This document shows, piece after piece, positions 3,001 through 8,070 of a DNA stretch of 8,070 bases. How positions within the stretch are numbered: the first letter of the stretch is position 1; each line of letters starts with the position of its first letter. The stretch lies in the IMG/VR virus record IMGVR_UViG_2695420380_000004; one strand, given 5' to 3'. Origin of the DNA: a virus (taxonomy: Duplodnaviria; Heunggongvirae; Uroviricota; Caudoviricetes). A program made the position numbers.

Positions 3001-6000
3001 TTCTGTACGGAATGGCAAGTGGCGGTTAATTTATTCAGGGGAAGGCTGTATGGGAAAAGGTGGCGGTAAGGCACACACGCCTCGTGAGGCGAAGGATAAT
3101 CTCAAATCCACGCAGATGATGAGCGTGATTGATGCGATTGGTGAGGGACTGATAGAAGGTCCGGTGAAGGGACTGCAGAGTATCCTGGTGAACAAAACCC
3201 CGCTGACGGACACGGACGGTAATCCCGTGATACACGGTGTGACGGCGGTCTGACGCGCCGGGGAGCAGGAGCAGACACCACCGGAAGGCTTTGAGTCCTC
3301 CGGTGCTGAAACCGGACTGGGCGTGGAAGTGACGAAGGCAAAACCGGTGACGCGCACCATTACGTCCGCGAACATTGACCGCCTGCGGGTTACCTTCGGG
3401 GTGCAGTCACTGGTGCAGACCACGTCAAAGGGTGACCGAAACCCGACATCCGTCCGCCTGCTGATTCAGTTACAGCGTAACGGTAACTGGGTGACAGAAA
3501 AGGATGTCACCATTAACGGCAAGACCACCTCGCAGTTTCTGGCGTCGGTGATTCTGGATAATCTGCCTCCCCGTCCTTTTAACATCCGGATGGTCCGGGA
3601 GACAGCGGACAGCACCACGGACCAGCTGCAGAATAAGACGCTGTGGTCGTCATACACCGAAATCATCGATGTGAAACAGTGCTACCCGAACACGGCCATT
3701 GTGGGGCTGCAGGTGGATGCGGAGCAGTTCGGCGGCCAGCAGATGACGGTGAACTACCATATCCGCGGTCGCATCATCCAGGTGCCGTCAAACTATGACC
3801 CGGAAAAACGCACGTACAGTGGTATCTGGGACGGCAGCCTGAAACCGGCATACAGCAACAATCCGGCCTGGTGTCTGTGGGACATGCTGACTCACCCGCG
3901 CTACGGCATGGGAAAACGTCTGGGGGCGGCGGATGTGGACAAGTGGGCGCTGTATGCCATCGGGCAGTACTGCGACCAGACGGTCCCGGATAGTTTCGGG
4001 GAGACCGAGCCGCGGATGACCTTCAATGCGTACCTGGCACAACAGCGTAAGGCATGGGACGTGCTCAGTGATTTCTGCTCGGCGATGCGCTGTATGCCGG
4101 TATGGAACGGCCAGACGCTGACGTTTGTTCAGGACCGCCCGTCGGATGTGGTGTGGCCGTACACCAACAGCGATGTGGTGGTGGATGATAACGGCGTGGG
4201 TTTCCGCTACAGCTTCAGTGCCCTGAAGGACCGGCACACGGCGGTGGAGGTGAATTATACCGACCCGCAGAACGGCTGGCAGACCTCCACGGAACTGGTG
4301 GAAGACCCGGAAGCCATACTGCGCTACGGACGCAACCTGCTGAAGATGGACGCGTTCGGCTGTACCAGCCGCGGTCAGGCCCACCGTGCCGGACTGTGGG
4401 TGATAAAGACCGAACTGCTGGAAACGCAGACGGTGGATTTCACGCTCGGGTCTCAGGGGCTGCGGCACACACCCGGTGACATCATTGAAATCTGTGATAA
4501 CGACTATGCCGGGACCCTGACCGGCGGACGTGTCCTGTCCATTGATGCTGCCACCCGCACTCTGACGCTGGACCGTGAAGTGACACTTCCGGAGACCGGT
4601 GCCGCCACGGTGAACCTGATTAACGGCAGCGGTAAGCCGGTGAGTGTGGACATCACCGAACACCCCGCGCCGGACCGGATACAGGTCAGTACCCTGCCTG
4701 ATGGTGTGGAGACATACGGGGTGTGGGGACTCTCCCTGCCGTCACTGCGCCGTCGCCTGTTCCGCTGTGTCTCCGTCCGGGAAAACACGGACGGCACCTT
4801 TGCCATCACGGCGGTGCAGCACGTACTGGAAAAAGAAGCCATCGTGGATAACGGTGCCCGCTTTGAGCCGCAGTCAGGTTCCCTGAACAGCGTCATCCCA
4901 CCGGCAGTGCAGCACCTGACGGCCAGTATCTGGCGCAGGCGAAATGGGACACGCCGCGGGTGGTGAAGGGTGTGCGCTTCAGTCTGCGCCTGACCAGTGG
5001 TAAGGGAACGGATGCCAGACTGGTGACCACCGCCATCACCGCAGACACGGAGCACCGTTTCAGCGGCCTGCCGCTCGGGGAATACACCCTGACGGTGCGG
5101 GCGATAAACAGCTATGGCCAGCAGGGTGAACCTGCCACCACCACCTTCCGGATTGCCGCACCGGCAGCACCGTCGCGGATTGAGCTGACGCCGGGCTATT
5201 TTCAGATAACCGCCACGCCGCATCTTGCGGTTTATGATCCGACGGTACAGTTTGAGTTCTGGTTCTCGGAAAAGCGGATTGCGGATATCAGGCAGGTTGA
5301 AACCACAGCACGCTATCTTGGCACGGCGCTGTACTGGATAGCCGCCAGTATCAATATCAAACCGGGCCATGATTATTATTTTTACGTTCGCAGTGTGAAC
5401 ACCGTTGGCAAATCGGCATTCGTGGAGGCTGTTGGTCAGCCGAGTGATGATGCATCCGGTTATCTGGATTTTTTCAAAGGCGAGATAGGGAAAACCCATC
5501 TGGCTCAGGAGCTGTGGACGCAGATTGATAACGGTCAGCTTGCGCCTGACCTGGCTGAAATCAGGACGTCCATTACGGATGTCAGCAATGAAATCACGCA
5601 GACTGTCAATAAGAAACTGAAAGACCAGAGTGCGGCAATCCAGCAGATACAGAAGGTTCAGGTTGATACAAATAATAACCTGAACAGCATGTGGGCTGTG
5701 AAGCTGCAGCAGATGCAGGACGGACGCCTTTATATCGCGGGTATTGGTGCCGGTATTGAGAACACCCCTGACGGCATGCAGAGTCAGGTGCTGCTGGCGG
5801 CGGACAGGATTGCGATGGTTAATCCTGCGAATGGCAACACAAAACCGATGTTTGTTGGTCAGGGCGATCAGATATTCATGAACGACGTGTTCCTGAAACG
5901 CCTGACGGCCCCCACCATTACCAGCGGTGGAAATCCATCGGCATTTTCCCTGACTCCGGACGGAAAGCTGACCGCTAAAAATGCGGATATCAGTGGCAGT

Positions 6001-8070
6001 GTGAATGCGAACGCCGGGACGCTCAACAATGTCACGGTAAATGAAAACTGTACGATTAAGGGCATGCTGGAGGCGACTCAGGTCAGAGGTGACTTCGTTA
6101 AAGCTGTATCCAAATCATTTCCGAAACAGGCTGGTACGTGGGGTAACACGGAAACACCAAACGGGACGGTTACAGTCACCATAAGCGATGATCATAACTT
6201 TGACCGCCAGATTATTATTCCGCCCATTATTTTTAACGGTATAGCGTATGACGATCCGGGGAGCGGAAATAACCCAGGAGGCACGCGATACACGGGTTAT
6301 GGTTTTGAAGTTCGCAAAAACGGCGTATTAATCGCATCCAGAGAAACTAAAGGTGCCATTCCCGGTAGTTACAGTGCAGTTATTGATATGCCTAGTGGTG
6401 GTGGTAGCGTCACTCTGGAGTTTAAGATTTTCCAGAAAGGCAATCAGGGGGCAGGCAATATCACCGACTGTACGGTGATTGTGACCAAAAAAGCGGCTTC
6501 CGGCATCAGTATTCGTTGAAATATTTATAACCCCAATAAATGGCGTCAGGAATGACGCCTTTTTTATTGCAGAAAAGCGAGAGGTAATTATGCGTAAAGT
6601 TTGTGCAGCCATTTTGTCCGCAGCCATTTGCCTGTCCGTATCCGGTGCGCCTGCATGGGCGTCTGAACATCAGTCCACGCTGAGCGCGGGGTATCTTCAT
6701 GCCCGGACCAACGTTCCCGGCAGTGATGATCTGAACGGGATTAACGTGAAATACCGTTATGAGTTTACGGATACGCTGGGGCTGGTGACGTCATTCAGCT
6801 ATGCAGGAGACAAGAATCGCCAGCTGACCCGTTACAGCGATACCCGCTGGCATGAAGATTCCGTGCGTAACCGCTGGTTCAGCGTGATGGCGGGGCCGTC
6901 TGTGCGCGTGAATGAATGGTTCAGCGCGTATGCGATGGCGGGTGTGGCTTACAGCCGTGTGTCGACTTTTTCCGGGGATTATATCCGCGTAACTGACAAT
7001 AAGGGGAAAACGCACGATGTGCTGACCGGAAGTGATGACGGTCGCCACAGCAACACGTCTCTGGCGCACTGACGGTTTCATCGTGGGTGTCGGTTATAAA
7101 TTCTGATTAGCCAGGTAACACAGTGTTATGACAGCCCGCCGGTTCAGGCGGGCTTTTTTGTGGGGTGAATATGGCAGTAAAGATTTCAGGTGTACTGAAA
7201 GACGGCACAGGAAAACCGGTACAGAACTGCACAATCCAGCTGAAAGCAAAACGTAACAGCACCACGGTGGTGGTGAACACGCTGGCATCTGAAAATCCGG
7301 ATGAAGCCGGGCGTTACAGTATGGACGTTGAGTACGGTCAGTACAGCGTTATTCTGTTGGTGGAGGGATTCCCGCCGTCACATGCCGGGACCATCACCGT
7401 GTATGAAGATTCTCAACCCGGTACGCTGAATGATTTTCTCGGTGCCATGACGGAGGATGATGCCCGTCCGGAGGCACTGCGCCGTTTTGAGCTGATGGTG
7501 GAAGAGGTGGCGCGTAACGCGTCCGCGGTGGCACAGAACACGGCAGCCGCGAAGAAATCAGCCAGCGATGCCAGCACATCAGCCCGTGAGGCGGCAACCC
7601 ATGCGACTGATGCTGCAGATTCAGCACGTGCAGCCAGCACGTCAGCCGGACAGGCCGCTTCGTCGGCTCAGTCAGCGTCTTCCAGCGCAGGAACGGCATC
7701 AACAAAGGCCACTGAAGCCTCAAAAAGTGCTGCCGCTGCAGAGTCCTCAAAAAGCGCGGCGGCTACCAGTGCCGGTGCGGCGAAAACGTTAGAAACGAAT
7801 GCGGCAGCGTCACAACAATCAGCAGCCACTTCTGCATCCACCGCGACCACGAAAGCGTCAGAAGCTGCCACCTCAGCCCGGGATGCGTCGGCTTCAAAAG
7901 AGGCGGCAAAATCATCAGAAACGAACGCATCATCAAGCGCCAGTAGCGCAGCTTCCTCGGCGACGGCGGCTGCAAATTCTGCGAAGGCGGCCAAAACGTC
8001 CGAGACGAACGCCAGGTCTTCTGAAACGGCAGCGGGACAGAGTGCCTCAGCTGCGGCAGGCTCAAAAACA

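What the first reader, a model, noticed from the sequence alone, without database searches (positions are those of the whole stretch)
5460..6519. Mosaic, AT-richer 3' end of J suggests an exchanged receptor-binding module
Through about residue 700 the J product tracks lambda gpJ closely. From about 5470 ([31 protein letters not shown]...) it diverges, then returns to near-identity for a block ([64 protein letters not shown]), and diverges again over the last roughly 140 residues (...[37 protein letters not shown]...[12 protein letters not shown]). The divergent blocks are visibly AT-richer than the rest of J (for example 6180-6440). In lambda the C-terminal part of J binds LamB, so this variant would probably target a different receptor. 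That point is moot if J is truly a pseudogene.
Basis: partly seen in the sequence, partly recalled or inferred. Interest (0 to 1): 0.45.

Follow-up and report, generated by a model that had tools for sequence, protein, structure and literature searches.

The report
Swapped receptor-binding tip, dead J gene
The 3' end of this phage tail-tip gene J really is a patchwork that carries a common, interchangeable receptor-binding cassette different from lambda's, but this is ordinary lambdoid-phage modularity and the gene itself is broken in a decaying Shigella sonnei prophage.

Summary
The mosaic is real. Against lambda J, the window alternates between near-identical blocks (5092-5481 and 5851-6030) and strongly diverged blocks (5482-5781, which has 28 extra residues, and 6031-6516). 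On the solved lambda gpJ architecture, the diverged blocks are the alpha-helical shaft and the Ig-like receptor-binding domain (RBD). The conserved blocks are FNIII-2 and the beta-prism fibre. Across 12 other J genes the hub, shaft and RBD types assort independently. Against phi330 the RBD is a cassette of about 0.46 kb with conserved sequence on both sides. Module exchange is therefore supported.

The AT-richness claim holds only in part. GC drops at about 5196, inside a lambda-like block, and lambda drops at the same place. Only the RBD is AT-richer than lambda's (0.47 vs 0.55).

This RBD type is common: 2,113 of 5,426 complete E. coli genomes, and phages mEp460, mEp332, Evi, WGPS6 and many Stx1a/Stx2c phages. 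It is 39-48% identical to every RBD with a known receptor (lambda-LamB; A8/phi330, phage 21-OmpC). Its receptor could not be assigned. A trimeric porin, probably OmpC, is the best guess.

J here is a pseudogene (TGA at 3251-3253; 22-nt deletion at 4916|4917), in a Shigella sonnei draft contig. Interest is low.

The parts
3050..6519 (+). J (tail-tip / central-fibre protein gpJ) pseudogene. About 1,163 codons when repaired in silico.
   Evidence: 94% nt identity over its whole length to ASU11 'host specificity protein J' and to Stx-phage J genes. Pfam FNIII-A_GpJ, Phage-tail_3, Ig_J, Ig_J_second, Phage_Tail_Tip and Ig_GpJ_C. Split into ORFs 3050-3253, 3323-4966 and 4960-6519.
3251..3253 (+). Premature stop codon TGA at J codon 68 (TGG, Trp, in ASU11).
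   Evidence: Alignment A1; position verified.
4916..4922 (+). Surviving CTGACGG repeat copy marking a 22-nt frameshifting deletion (between 4916 and 4917).
   Evidence: The deletion is seen against ASU11, lambda and LD93-1, and the deleted stretch is flanked by two CTGACGG copies in ASU11.
5092..5481 (+). FNIII-2 block, near-identical to lambda. Left-hand conserved 'linker' for the shaft.
   Evidence: 89% aa identity and 0.78 third-codon-position identity to lambda, against 0.57 in the hub. Pfam Ig_J_second, E 7.5e-41. The GC change point at 5196 lies inside it.
5482..5781 (+). Alpha-helical shaft (AHS) variant, 28 residues longer than lambda's. This is the first diverged block.
   Evidence: 38% aa identity to lambda. 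96-98% to phi21, LD93-1, ASU11 and WGPS6, but about 30% to mEp460, Evi and Stx1_JNE122536, which nevertheless share the window's RBD. Three length classes exist. Domain name taken from PMC11101478.
5782..6030 (+). Central straight fibre (beta-prism). 5851-6030 is the second lambda-like block. It includes the recombination and engineering junction (lambda residue 964 = window 5995-5997).
   Evidence: 92% aa identity and 0.83 third-position identity to lambda over 5851-6030. Pfam Phage_Tail_Tip. Eligo's chimeras are joined at lambda residue 964 (PMC11338833; mapped).
5809..5904 (+). Equivalent of lambda J 902-933, the peptide that triggers the HepS abortive-infection nuclease. Q922 and F924 are retained.
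   Evidence: Translation [32 protein letters not shown] against lambda [32 protein letters not shown]. Trigger defined in PMC13043305.
6031..6516 (+). Ig-like receptor-binding domain (RBD) of a non-lambda type. As a nucleotide cassette it spans about 6057-6520.
   Evidence: Pfam Ig_GpJ_C PF12421, E 1.1e-25. PDB sequence hits A8 gpJ 1.2e-42 and lambda gpJ 8e-34. AF2 model pLDDT 79; top folds 8xcj/8xck (lambda) and 9wcb/9wca (A8 with OmpC), TM about 0.74. 39% identical to lambda and 43-48% to other types. Cassette bounds against phi330.
6124..6156 (+). RBD variable segment V1 ([11 protein letters not shown]).
   Evidence: Low-conservation, indel-bearing alignment columns 50-57. Inter-strand loop in the AF2 model.
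6244..6288 (+). RBD variable segment V2 ([15 protein letters not shown]), the longest among the six RBD types aligned. It aligns with the phi330 hairpin E953-S962, which enters OmpC in that paper's AlphaFold3 model.
   Evidence: PMC12502783.
6337..6369 (+). RBD variable segment V3 ([11 protein letters not shown]).
6433..6456 (+). RBD variable segment V4 (QKGNQGAG), 3 or 4 residues shorter than in the other types. It aligns with the phi330 hairpin A1015-P1020, which contacts OmpC in that paper's AlphaFold3 model.
   Evidence: PMC12502783.
6542..6559 (+). Terminator-like hairpin plus T-run between J and lom. It forms part of the right-hand conserved flank of the RBD cassette.
   Evidence: The same position is annotated as a rho-independent terminator in mEp460. 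92-95% identity to phi330 from about 6528.
6590..7072 (+). lom pseudogene: 160 codons instead of about 199, caused by an 83-nt deletion at 7061|7062 between CTGGCG repeats.
   Evidence: Pfam Ail_Lom matches profile positions 1-159 of 199. Alignment A4. Junction position.

Best explanation
The region 5460-6519 is the distal half of the central tail fibre of a lambdoid prophage J protein. It consists of four segments in a row:
- A conserved FNIII-2 end.
- A variant alpha-helical shaft (5482-5781, +28 aa).
- A conserved beta-prism fibre (5782-6030).
- A variant Ig-like receptor-binding domain (6031-6516).

MECHANISM. The two conserved segments, together with the J stop/terminator/lom region downstream, act as homology 'linkers'. 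Lambdoid phages and prophages recombine within them, so the shaft and the RBD are shuffled as separate cassettes. The window's combination (Stx-phage-type hub, long shaft, this RBD type) is one of many natural combinations and is also found intact in phages ASU11 and WGPS6.

RECEPTOR. In an intact virion the trimeric RBD would insert four variable loops into an outer-membrane protein and trigger tail opening, as solved for lambda with LamB and for A8 with OmpC. For this RBD type the receptor is unassigned. My inferred ranking is a trimeric porin, with OmpC most likely (about 0.45). Below that come LamB (about 0.15), another porin such as OmpF or PhoE (about 0.2) and something else (about 0.2).

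STATUS IN THIS GENOME. The source is a Shigella sonnei draft contig. Here J is dead: it has a nonsense codon at codon 68 and a 22-nt microhomology deletion. The neighbouring lom is dead too. The cassette is therefore a relic, with no adsorption function for this prophage.

SHOWN: the mosaic, the domain identities, independent assortment, cassette bounds, prevalence and the lesions.
INFERRED: recombination as the process, the loops as receptor contacts, and the receptor identity.

The confidence of 0.85 applies to the identity of the feature and to cassette exchange. It does not apply to the receptor guess.
For: - Block structure against lambda, and its significance.
- Domain assignment by Pfam, PDB sequence search, AF2 model plus Foldseek and the published lambda gpJ architecture (PMC11101478).
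- Independent assortment, as identity to the window for hub/FN3/AHS/CSF/RBD: LD93-1 76/77/98/99/99; phi21 76/77/96/89/41; mEp460 76/77/29/84/96; Stx1_JNE122536 97/76/30/83/97; Stx2a_JNE122398 97/83/54/77/43; ASU11 98/93/98/92/97.
- Discrete RBD classes with no intermediates.
- RBD cassette bounded on both sides against phi330: 85-92% identity up to about 6056, 33-60% over 6057-6500, 88-100% from about 6528.
- Conserved blocks also have raised synonymous-site identity to lambda (0.78 and 0.83, against 0.57 in the hub). This points to recent exchange, not only protein constraint.
- Engineers swap J RBDs at exactly this junction (lambda residue 964) and obtain functional OmpC-targeting particles (PMC11338833).
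- The four most variable, indel-bearing RBD segments lie in inter-strand loops of the model. Two of them coincide with the OmpC-contacting hairpins in the phi330 AlphaFold3 model (PMC12502783).
- Prevalence: 2,113 of 5,426 complete E. coli genomes.
- Lesions.
- Source organism and reproducibility in other S. sonnei assemblies.
Against: - No experiment or paper that I could access assigns a receptor to this RBD type, so the porin/OmpC proposal rests on family precedent only.
- The window RBD is no closer to OmpC binders (43-48%) than A8 is to lambda (46%).
- Gifsy-1 J is reported to bind OmpX and BtuB as well as OmpC (PMC12312913). Receptors in this family are therefore not restricted to trimeric porins.
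- I did not verify on model coordinates that the four variable loops lie on the distal face of the RBD.
- The two J lesions come from a draft Illumina-era assembly. The contig is reported for two samples, but the other assemblies I aligned do not cover the lesion sites.
Confidence: 0.85

Rival explanations
1. The mosaic is an assembly artefact. The draft S. sonnei assembly collapsed or chimerised several paralogous J genes from different prophages into one contig.
For: The window is an 8,070-bp scaffold with internal N gaps from a draft assembly. E. coli and Shigella genomes carry several J paralogues: the median is 3 places per E. coli genome and the highest is 15.
Against: Exactly the same module combination exists in complete, independently sequenced phage genomes. 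ASU11 and WGPS6 are 91-98% identical to the window in every module. Two other S. sonnei assemblies are 100% identical to the window wherever they overlap it: L015 over 5399-6600 and L014 from about 5758. The mosaic is defined against lambda, not against the nearest relatives.
Confidence: 0.03
2. The diverged blocks arose in place, by accelerated point mutation or positive selection on receptor-binding residues. No DNA was imported.
For: Experimental evolution shows that lambda and phage 21 J change receptor use through a few point mutations (PMC11336670; PMC11101478 discussion). Variation within the RBD is concentrated in loops.
Against: - Identity classes are discrete, with no intermediates.
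- Blocks have sharp boundaries with multi-codon indels.
- Synonymous sites are as diverged as non-synonymous ones in the RBD (third-position identity 0.38).
- The same RBD occurs at 95-99% identity on unrelated hub and shaft backgrounds.
Confidence: 0.04
3. The RBD cassette is exchanged, but it still binds LamB, so host range is unchanged relative to lambda.
For: The fold is the same as lambda's RBD (TM about 0.73). The beta-strand core is conserved. LamB is used by a minority of the mEp lambdoid collection, which includes mEp460 and mEp332 with this RBD (PMC11893012).
Against: All four loop segments differ in sequence and length from lambda's. Overall identity is 39%. Every non-lambda RBD type of this family with a characterised receptor uses OmpC: 434, 21, phi330/A8, 1A2 and Gifsy-1. 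The mEp paper says OmpC is the second most used receptor after FhuA in that collection.
Confidence: 0.15
4. The surviving 519-codon ORF (4960-6519) is expressed and functional on its own, for example as a free fibre or RBD fragment. In that case the locus would not be a mere relic.
For: The ORF is intact from a GTG at 4960 to the natural stop. It covers FNIII through RBD and is called as a gene in the deposited annotation.
Against: The GTG is an incidental in-frame start created by the frameshift. The fragment lacks all hub domains needed to join the tail tip. The neighbouring lom carries an 83-nt deletion of the same microhomology type, which indicates general decay. Gene L is interrupted by a scaffold gap, so its state cannot be read. 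I did not examine the sequence upstream of 4960 for a ribosome-binding site or a promoter.
Confidence: 0.03

Closest known systems
Bacteriophage lambda gpJ (tip attachment protein J; PDB 8iyk, 8xcj, 8xck)
   Same: - The domain order is the same: hub, FNIII-1/2, alpha-helical shaft, beta-prism fibre, Ig-like RBD.
- FNIII-2 and the CSF are 89-92% identical in protein.
- The RBD fold matches (TM about 0.73).
- The gene context M-L-K-I-J-lom-stf is the same.
   Different: - The hub is only about 77% identical.
- The shaft is 28 residues longer and 38% identical.
- The RBD is 39-42% identical, and all four receptor loops differ in length and sequence.
- The RBD is AT-richer (0.47 vs 0.55).
- The gene is inactivated here.
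J of phages ASU11 and Stx2a_WGPS6 (Pankowvirus), and of many Stx1a/Stx2c-converting phages
   Same: ASU11 and WGPS6 have the same hub, shaft and RBD types at 91-98% protein identity in every module. The downstream lom-stf context is also the same. Stx1_JNE122536 shares the hub (97%) and the RBD (97%).
   Different: Those genes are intact. The window's copy has a nonsense codon and a 22-nt deletion, and is about 6% diverged in nucleotides. Stx1_JNE122536 carries the short lambda-type shaft (30% identity to the window's).
A8 gpJ chimera / phage phi330 J (OmpC-binding RBD; PDB 9wca, 9wcb)
   Same: It belongs to the same RBD family (PF12421) and is the best PDB sequence hit (E 1.2e-42). The left junction is the same (lambda residue 964). 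The downstream terminator and lom are 88-100% identical to the window's. RBD GC is the same (0.473).
   Different: RBD identity to the window is only 45%. The loops that contact OmpC (ENFNSNNQQS and ANNWTP in phi330) are replaced by unrelated sequences of other lengths.
Phage 21 J (OmpC, evolvable to OmpF)
   Same: It has the same long shaft type (96% identity) and a conserved CSF (89%).
   Different: Its RBD is 41-43% identical to the window's, and 81% identical to the A8 type. It has a lambda-type hub and no lom downstream.
J of phages mEp460, mEp332, Evi, 2B8, ev207, Perceval and E. coli LD93-1 gpJ (WP_111738617.1)
   Same: They have the same RBD type (96-99% protein identity). These are intact genes, several of them in phages grown on E. 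coli K-12.
   Different: Their hub is lambda-type (76% identity to the window's). mEp460 and Evi carry the short lambda-type shaft, whereas LD93-1 carries the long one.

Membership tests
Lambda-type tip attachment protein J (gpJ) family | N-terminal hub domains homologous to gpJ (FNIII-A_GpJ, Phage-tail_3). | tested here: met
   Pfam PF24801, E 2.5e-39, and PF13550, E 1.2e-38, on ORF 3323-4966.
Lambda-type tip attachment protein J (gpJ) family | Two Ig/FNIII domains followed by the tail-tip fibre domain (Ig_J, Ig_J_second, Phage_Tail_Tip). | tested here: met
   PF24421 4e-23, PF24489 7.5e-41 and PF09327 2.7e-31 on ORF 4960-6519. phmmer to 8iyk_J gives 1.7e-178.
Lambda-type tip attachment protein J (gpJ) family | Position in the tail-tip operon M-L-K-I-J, followed by lom and stf. 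| tested here: met
   Gene order in the window, colinear with lambda, ASU11 and LD93-1.
Lambda-type tip attachment protein J (gpJ) family | An intact reading frame encoding a functional protein of about 1,130-1,230 residues. | tested here: not met
   TGA at 3251-3253 and a 22-nt deletion at 4916|4917. By homology the locus is a member of the family, but as a pseudogene.
Ig_GpJ_C receptor-binding domain (PF12421) | Sequence match to the family model above the curated cut-off. | tested here: met
   90.7 bits against a cut-off of 26.2, E 1.1e-25, covering residues 383-518 of the 519-aa ORF.
Ig_GpJ_C receptor-binding domain (PF12421) | Beta-sandwich fold superposable on solved gpJ RBDs. | tested here: met
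   AF2 model with pLDDT 79.2 and pTM 0.73. Foldseek top hits are 8xcj, 8xck, 9wcb and 9wca, with E from 2e-14 to 3e-13 and TM 0.73-0.75; the next hit is at E 6e-5.
Ig_GpJ_C receptor-binding domain (PF12421) | Forms a trimer and binds an outer-membrane protein through its distal loops. | not testable with these tools
   No multimer or complex prediction and no experiment was available. This is inferred from the lambda-LamB and A8-OmpC structures (PMC11101478; PDB 9wcb title).
LamB-specific lambda-type RBD | Close sequence identity to lambda J residues about 976-1132, including loops L1-L4. | tested here: not met
   39-42% identity. All four variable segments differ in length and sequence.
OmpC-specific A8/phi330/phage-21-type RBD | Close sequence identity to the A8/phi330 RBD, including the hairpins ENFNSNNQQS and ANNWTP. 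| tested here: not met
   43-45% identity, and both hairpins are replaced. This lowers the claim 'is an A8-type RBD' but does not exclude OmpC binding.
FhuA-dependent lambdoid J (HK022 type) | The C-terminus resembles HK022 gp24, with cor downstream. | tested here: not met
   Homology between HK022 J and the window ends in the CSF, and no RBD alignment is found. HK022 has cor downstream, whereas the window has lom.

The most novel reading that the evidence does not exclude
This RBD class is present in about 39% of complete E. coli genomes and in many Stx1a/Stx2c-converting phages, yet I could find no receptor assigned to it. The most novel reading is that it recognises an outer-membrane receptor not yet described for lambda-type J proteins, meaning something other than LamB, OmpC or OmpF. 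If so, a very common route of lambdoid and Stx-phage adsorption would be uncharacterised. The dead S. sonnei copy, flanked by conserved linkers, could still donate that specificity to incoming phages by recombination.
Probability: 0.15. Interest if true: 0.5.

Novelty: already known. Interest (0 to 1): 0.15.

Why it matters
For this window, it matters little. The gene is a pseudogene copy of an allele found at 95-99% identity in thousands of sequenced genomes. Modular exchange of the J C-terminus is textbook lambdoid biology and is already used in engineering, where chimeras are joined at lambda residue 964.

Two modest points of wider use emerged:
1. The shaft and the RBD are separate cassettes that assort independently, with FNIII-2 and the CSF as homogenised linkers.
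2. One of the commonest J RBD classes in E. coli, E. albertii and Shigella, carried by many Stx1a/Stx2c phages, has no receptor assignment in the literature I could search. Determining it would help predict the host range of Stx-converting and other lambdoid phages and widen the toolbox for retargeted lambda particles.

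Tried and rejected
1. RECEPTOR ASSIGNMENT FROM THE LITERATURE. I used nine paper searches and read eight papers.
- phi330's OmpC result looked transferable at first, because phi330's closest genome is WGPS6, which carries the window's RBD. But phi330's own RBD is the A8 type, 45% identical to the window's. Rejected.
- Reference 47 of that paper is the T-even phage PP01, so it is irrelevant.
- Eligo's 1A2 and A8 sequences are not in the held supplements.
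- Refardt 2011 (PMC3160688), which typed mEp332 by receptor, is not held. Hernandez-Sanchez 2008 is not held either.
- No paper for PDB 9wca/9wcb is held.

2. RECEPTOR INFERENCE FROM THE BEST PDB HIT. A8 scores 1.2e-42 against lambda's 8e-34. I rejected this as decisive because the pairwise identities are nearly equidistant.

3. EXACT-MATCH SCAN OF GENOME_CONTIGS for the deletion junction gave no hits. The source was found instead by exact protein look-up.

4. HEPTAD PERIODICITY of the 28-residue shaft insertion. The hydrophobic-periodicity power was weak (0.45-0.48 at 3.5-3.6 residues, 0.74 at 5), so I make no coiled-coil claim beyond homology to lambda's helical shaft.

5. AT-RICHNESS AS A MARKER OF FOREIGN ORIGIN. 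Rejected for the shaft and for the overall 3' third, because lambda shows the same pattern.

6. RFAM SCAN of the window gave nothing. The promoter scan of 6400-7400 gave nothing above the shuffled expectation.

7. TECHNICAL. Loci fetched in parallel batches were not all exported to the Python machine. I worked around this with alignment files.

Full report
WHAT THE WINDOW IS

The 8,070-nt window is the whole of contig CXCT01000170.1 from draft assembly GCA_001249045.1. NCBI names its proteins as Shigella sonnei. The N-runs (about 800-890 and 2506-2945) are therefore scaffold gaps. The window carries the tail-tip operon of a lambdoid prophage: M (155-484), L, K, I, J (3050-6519), lom (6590-7072) and the start of stf (from 7171). 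It is colinear with lambda, phage ASU11 and an E. coli LD93-1 prophage.

CHECKING THE OBSERVATION

I aligned the window's J with lambda J. Identity in 90-nt windows is:
- 49-91% across 3050-5168.
- 88-97% across 5124-5483.
- 24-44% across 5484-5710, where the window has 84 extra nucleotides (36+27+21).
- 59-70% across 5664-5888.
- 88-94% across 5844-6068.
- 36-63% from 6024 to the stop.

Codon-wise, protein identity to lambda is 0.89 in the FNIII-2 block (5092-5481), 0.38 in 5482-5781, 0.92 in 5851-6030 and 0.42 in 6031-6516. Adjacent blocks differ with Fisher p of 6e-17, 4e-15 and 8e-23. The mosaic is real and far beyond chance.

Two details need correcting. The N-terminal two-thirds do not track lambda closely: the hub is 77% identical in protein and FNIII-1 58%. 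The last diverged stretch is about 160 residues, not 140.

THE GC CLAIM

GC is 0.595 in the hub, 0.590 in FNIII, 0.498 in the shaft, 0.538 in the CSF and 0.473 in the RBD. The single best change point in J is at window 5196 (0.604 upstream, 0.497 downstream). That lies inside a block about 96% identical to lambda. Lambda J has its change point at the homologous place (about residue 724; 0.593 to 0.532).

The diverged shaft has the same GC as lambda's shaft (0.498 vs 0.502). Only the RBD is AT-richer than lambda's: 0.473 vs 0.548 (p = 0.025), with GC3 0.463 vs 0.618. It has exactly the GC of the unrelated phi330/A8 RBD type (0.473). AT-richness is thus a property of the whole distal fibre in this gene family. 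It is not a marker of the diverged blocks. It is marginally informative for the RBD only.

WHAT THE BLOCKS ARE

Pfam places Ig_J, Ig_J_second, Phage_Tail_Tip (PF09327) and Ig_GpJ_C, the 'C-terminal receptor binding domain' (PF12421, E 1.1e-25), along ORF 4960-6519. The PDB sequence search finds lambda gpJ (8iyk, E 1.7e-178) and two C-terminal fragments, lambda gpJ713 and 'A8 gpJ 713'.

The lambda structure paper gives the domain order as hub domains, FNIII-1, FNIII-2, alpha-helical shaft (AHS), beta-prism central straight fibre (CSF) and Ig-like RBD. The RBD has four receptor-binding loops, L1-L4 (PMC11101478). Mapping through the alignment gives these assignments:
- The first diverged block is the AHS (5482-5781, 28 residues longer than lambda's).
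- The lambda-like block is the CSF (5782-6030, with 5851-6030 near-identical).
- The last block is the RBD (6031-6516).

An AlphaFold2 model of the RBD (pLDDT 79.2, pTM 0.73) has as its top four PDB neighbours the lambda RBD (8xcj with LamB, 8xck) and the A8 RBD (9wcb with OmpC of E. coli EDL933, 9wca). All are at TM 0.73-0.75, and the next hit is nine orders of magnitude weaker.

IS IT AN EXCHANGED MODULE?

I compared the in-silico-repaired window J with 12 other J proteins, module by module. Identities to the window for hub/FNIII/AHS/CSF/RBD are:
- lambda 76/75/30/84/37
- ASU11 98/93/98/92/97
- WGPS6 96/91/98/92/97
- LD93-1 76/77/98/99/99
- phage 21 76/77/96/89/41
- mEp460 76/77/29/84/96
- Evi 76/76/30/82/99
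- Stx1_JNE122536 97/76/30/83/97
- Stx2a_JNE122398 97/83/54/77/43
- phi330 77/73/58/77/43
- Fels-1 71/68/33/76/43
- PhiR40_1 76/68/26/72/40

Hub type, shaft type and RBD type occur in many different combinations, so they assort independently. The shaft itself comes in three length classes: lambda-short, +28 residues, and +101 residues in PhiR40_1.

RBD identities are discrete. In the phage collection, 74 records are at least 90% identical, 168 are below 60%, and none lie between. The 5.8-billion-protein search is bimodal in the same way.

Against phi330, nucleotide identity is 85-92% up to about 6056 and 33-60% over 6057-6500. It is 88-100% from about 6528 through the terminator, lom and the start of stf. 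The RBD is therefore a cassette of about 0.46 kb with conserved flanks on both sides, and it swaps independently of lom.

The lambda-like blocks also have raised third-codon-position identity (0.78 and 0.83, against 0.57 in the hub and 0.38 in the RBD). They share more recent ancestry and are not merely under protein constraint.

The left junction is the one used by engineers. [quoted passage not shown] That residue maps to window 5995-5997.

Module exchange by homologous recombination in conserved linkers is thus well supported.

WHICH RECEPTOR?

RBD types with a characterised receptor in the sources I could read are:
- lambda: LamB.
- Phage 434: OmpC (stated in PMC11101478).
- Phage 21: OmpC (PMC11336670, listed, which I did not read; the assignment itself rests on my own knowledge of that phage).
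- phi330: OmpC, shown by Keio knockout and complementation (PMC12502783).
- The A8 and 1A2 chimeras: OmpC (PMC11338833).
- Gifsy-1 J: OmpC, plus OmpX and BtuB (PMC12312913).

I found that A8's RBD is 99% identical to phi330's, and phage 21's is 81% identical to it. Those experiments therefore describe a single class.

The window's RBD is a different class. It is 45% identical to A8/phi330, 43% to phage 21, 44% to PhiR40_1, 46% to Fels-1 and 39% to lambda. A8 versus lambda is itself 46%. Similarity therefore cannot assign the receptor.

The four least conserved, indel-bearing segments of the RBD alignment lie in inter-strand loops of the model:
- V1, 6124-6156.
- V2, 6244-6288.
- V3, 6337-6369.
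- V4, 6433-6456.

V2 and V4 coincide with the two hairpins that contact OmpC in the phi330 AlphaFold3 model. The window type differs from every other type in all four. V2 is the longest of the types aligned, and V4 is 3 or 4 residues shorter than in the other types.

HK022, a FhuA-dependent lambdoid phage, has no homologue of this RBD: its homology to the window ends in the CSF. FhuA is therefore unlikely.

mEp460 and mEp332 carry the window's RBD type. The collection they belong to is said to use FhuA mostly, with OmpC 'secondarily used' and LamB also used by some (PMC11893012). The papers that typed them individually are not held.

My best guess, marked as inference, is a trimeric porin. I put OmpC at about 0.45, LamB at about 0.15, another porin at about 0.2 and something else at about 0.2.

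HOW COMMON IS IT?

The RBD nucleotide sequence (6069-6519) is found in 2,113 of 5,426 complete E. coli genomes, mostly at 90-99% identity. The shaft-plus-RBD combination (5460-6519) is found at 80% coverage or more in 1,164 genomes. Named sources of the RBD type are E. coli, E. albertii and S. sonnei. Phages carrying it include Evi, 2B8, ev207, ev099, mEp332, mEp460, Perceval, Kati and HannyBb, together with many Stx1a-, Stx2a- and Stx2c-converting phages.

STATE OF THE GENE HERE

Relative to ASU11, J has TGG changed to TGA at 3251-3253 (codon 68). It also has a 22-nt deletion between two CTGACGG repeats, and the surviving copy is at 4916-4922. These lesions produce the three ORFs seen.

The neighbouring lom has an 83-nt deletion between CTGGCG repeats at 7061|7062. 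Its exact 160-residue product recurs in two other S. sonnei assemblies and one read set (ERR025689).

Two other S. sonnei assemblies match the window without a single difference wherever they overlap it: L015 over the whole of 5399-6600, and L014 from about 5758. So the 3' end of J is reproducible, although those contigs do not reach the J lesions. The best full-length match in complete E. coli genomes is 94%.

This is a decaying prophage, which fits the general picture of gene decay in Shigella (my own knowledge). The RBD has no adsorption role for it. At most, the intact shaft-CSF-RBD stretch, flanked by conserved linkers, could serve as a recombination donor for incoming lambdoid phages. 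That is an inference and was not tested.

RIVALS
- An assembly chimera is excluded, because complete phage genomes have the same architecture and other assemblies are identical.
- In-place divergence is excluded by the discrete classes, the sharp indel-bearing boundaries, the saturated synonymous sites and the free assortment.
- Retention of LamB specificity cannot be excluded (about 0.15).
- A functional role for the residual 519-codon ORF is unlikely, since it lacks the hub.

VERDICT

But the phenomenon is well known, the allele is common, the GC argument is mostly wrong, and the gene is dead in this genome. Interest is low (0.15). The only open question of some value is the unassigned receptor of this very common RBD class.

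Noticed in passing
window 6590-7072 (junction at 7061|7062): lom is also a pseudogene. An 83-nt deletion between two CTGGCG direct repeats truncates it to 160 codons. This is the same microhomology-deletion signature as the 22-nt J deletion. The exact truncated product recurs in two other S. sonnei assemblies and one read set (ERR025689).
   Followed up: yes
window 5809-5904: The conserved CSF block contains the equivalent of lambda J 902-933, the 32-residue peptide shown to trigger the Gifsy-1 HepS abortive-infection nuclease. Q922 and F924 are retained, and F924 is invariant in all 12 J proteins aligned. This defence-sensed peptide sits in the very segment that serves as a recombination linker.
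   Followed up: partly
window 5482-5781; L012 (PhiR40_1) 137-3835: The alpha-helical shaft of J occurs in three length classes: lambda-short, +28 aa and +101 aa. They assort independently of RBD type. What shaft length does functionally is unknown. In lambda this region refolds on receptor binding.
   Followed up: partly
PDB 9wca/9wcb compared with L005 (phi330) 710-3838: The engineered 'A8' gpJ RBD (Eligo; solved with OmpC of EDL933) is 99% identical to the RBD of the natural EHEC phage phi330, which was independently shown to need OmpC. Phage 21's RBD is 81% identical to it.
   Followed up: yes
window ~800-890 and 2506-2945: Runs of N interrupt gene L and the I/J junction. The window is an entire scaffolded contig of a draft S. 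sonnei assembly, so these are assembly gaps. The state of L and of the 3' end of I cannot be read.
   Followed up: partly
window 7081-7290 compared with L001 (lambda): Relative to lambda, divergence continues through lom (30-77% identity), and 90-97% identity resumes only at the lom 3' end, the terminator and the start of stf. Relative to phi330, lom is 87-100% identical. Lambda's lom is thus the odd one out, and lom is another independently exchanged unit.
   Followed up: partly
L017 (HK022) 5138-8689 and 9739-9972: The J of the FhuA-dependent phage HK022 shares only the end of the shaft and the start of the CSF with the window's J. It lacks any PF12421-type RBD, and cor lies downstream in place of lom.
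   Followed up: partly
window 6542-6559 and 7133-7154: Two terminator-like hairpins with T-runs follow J and lom. Both are conserved with intact phages, so lom is bracketed as its own transcription unit.
   Followed up: no
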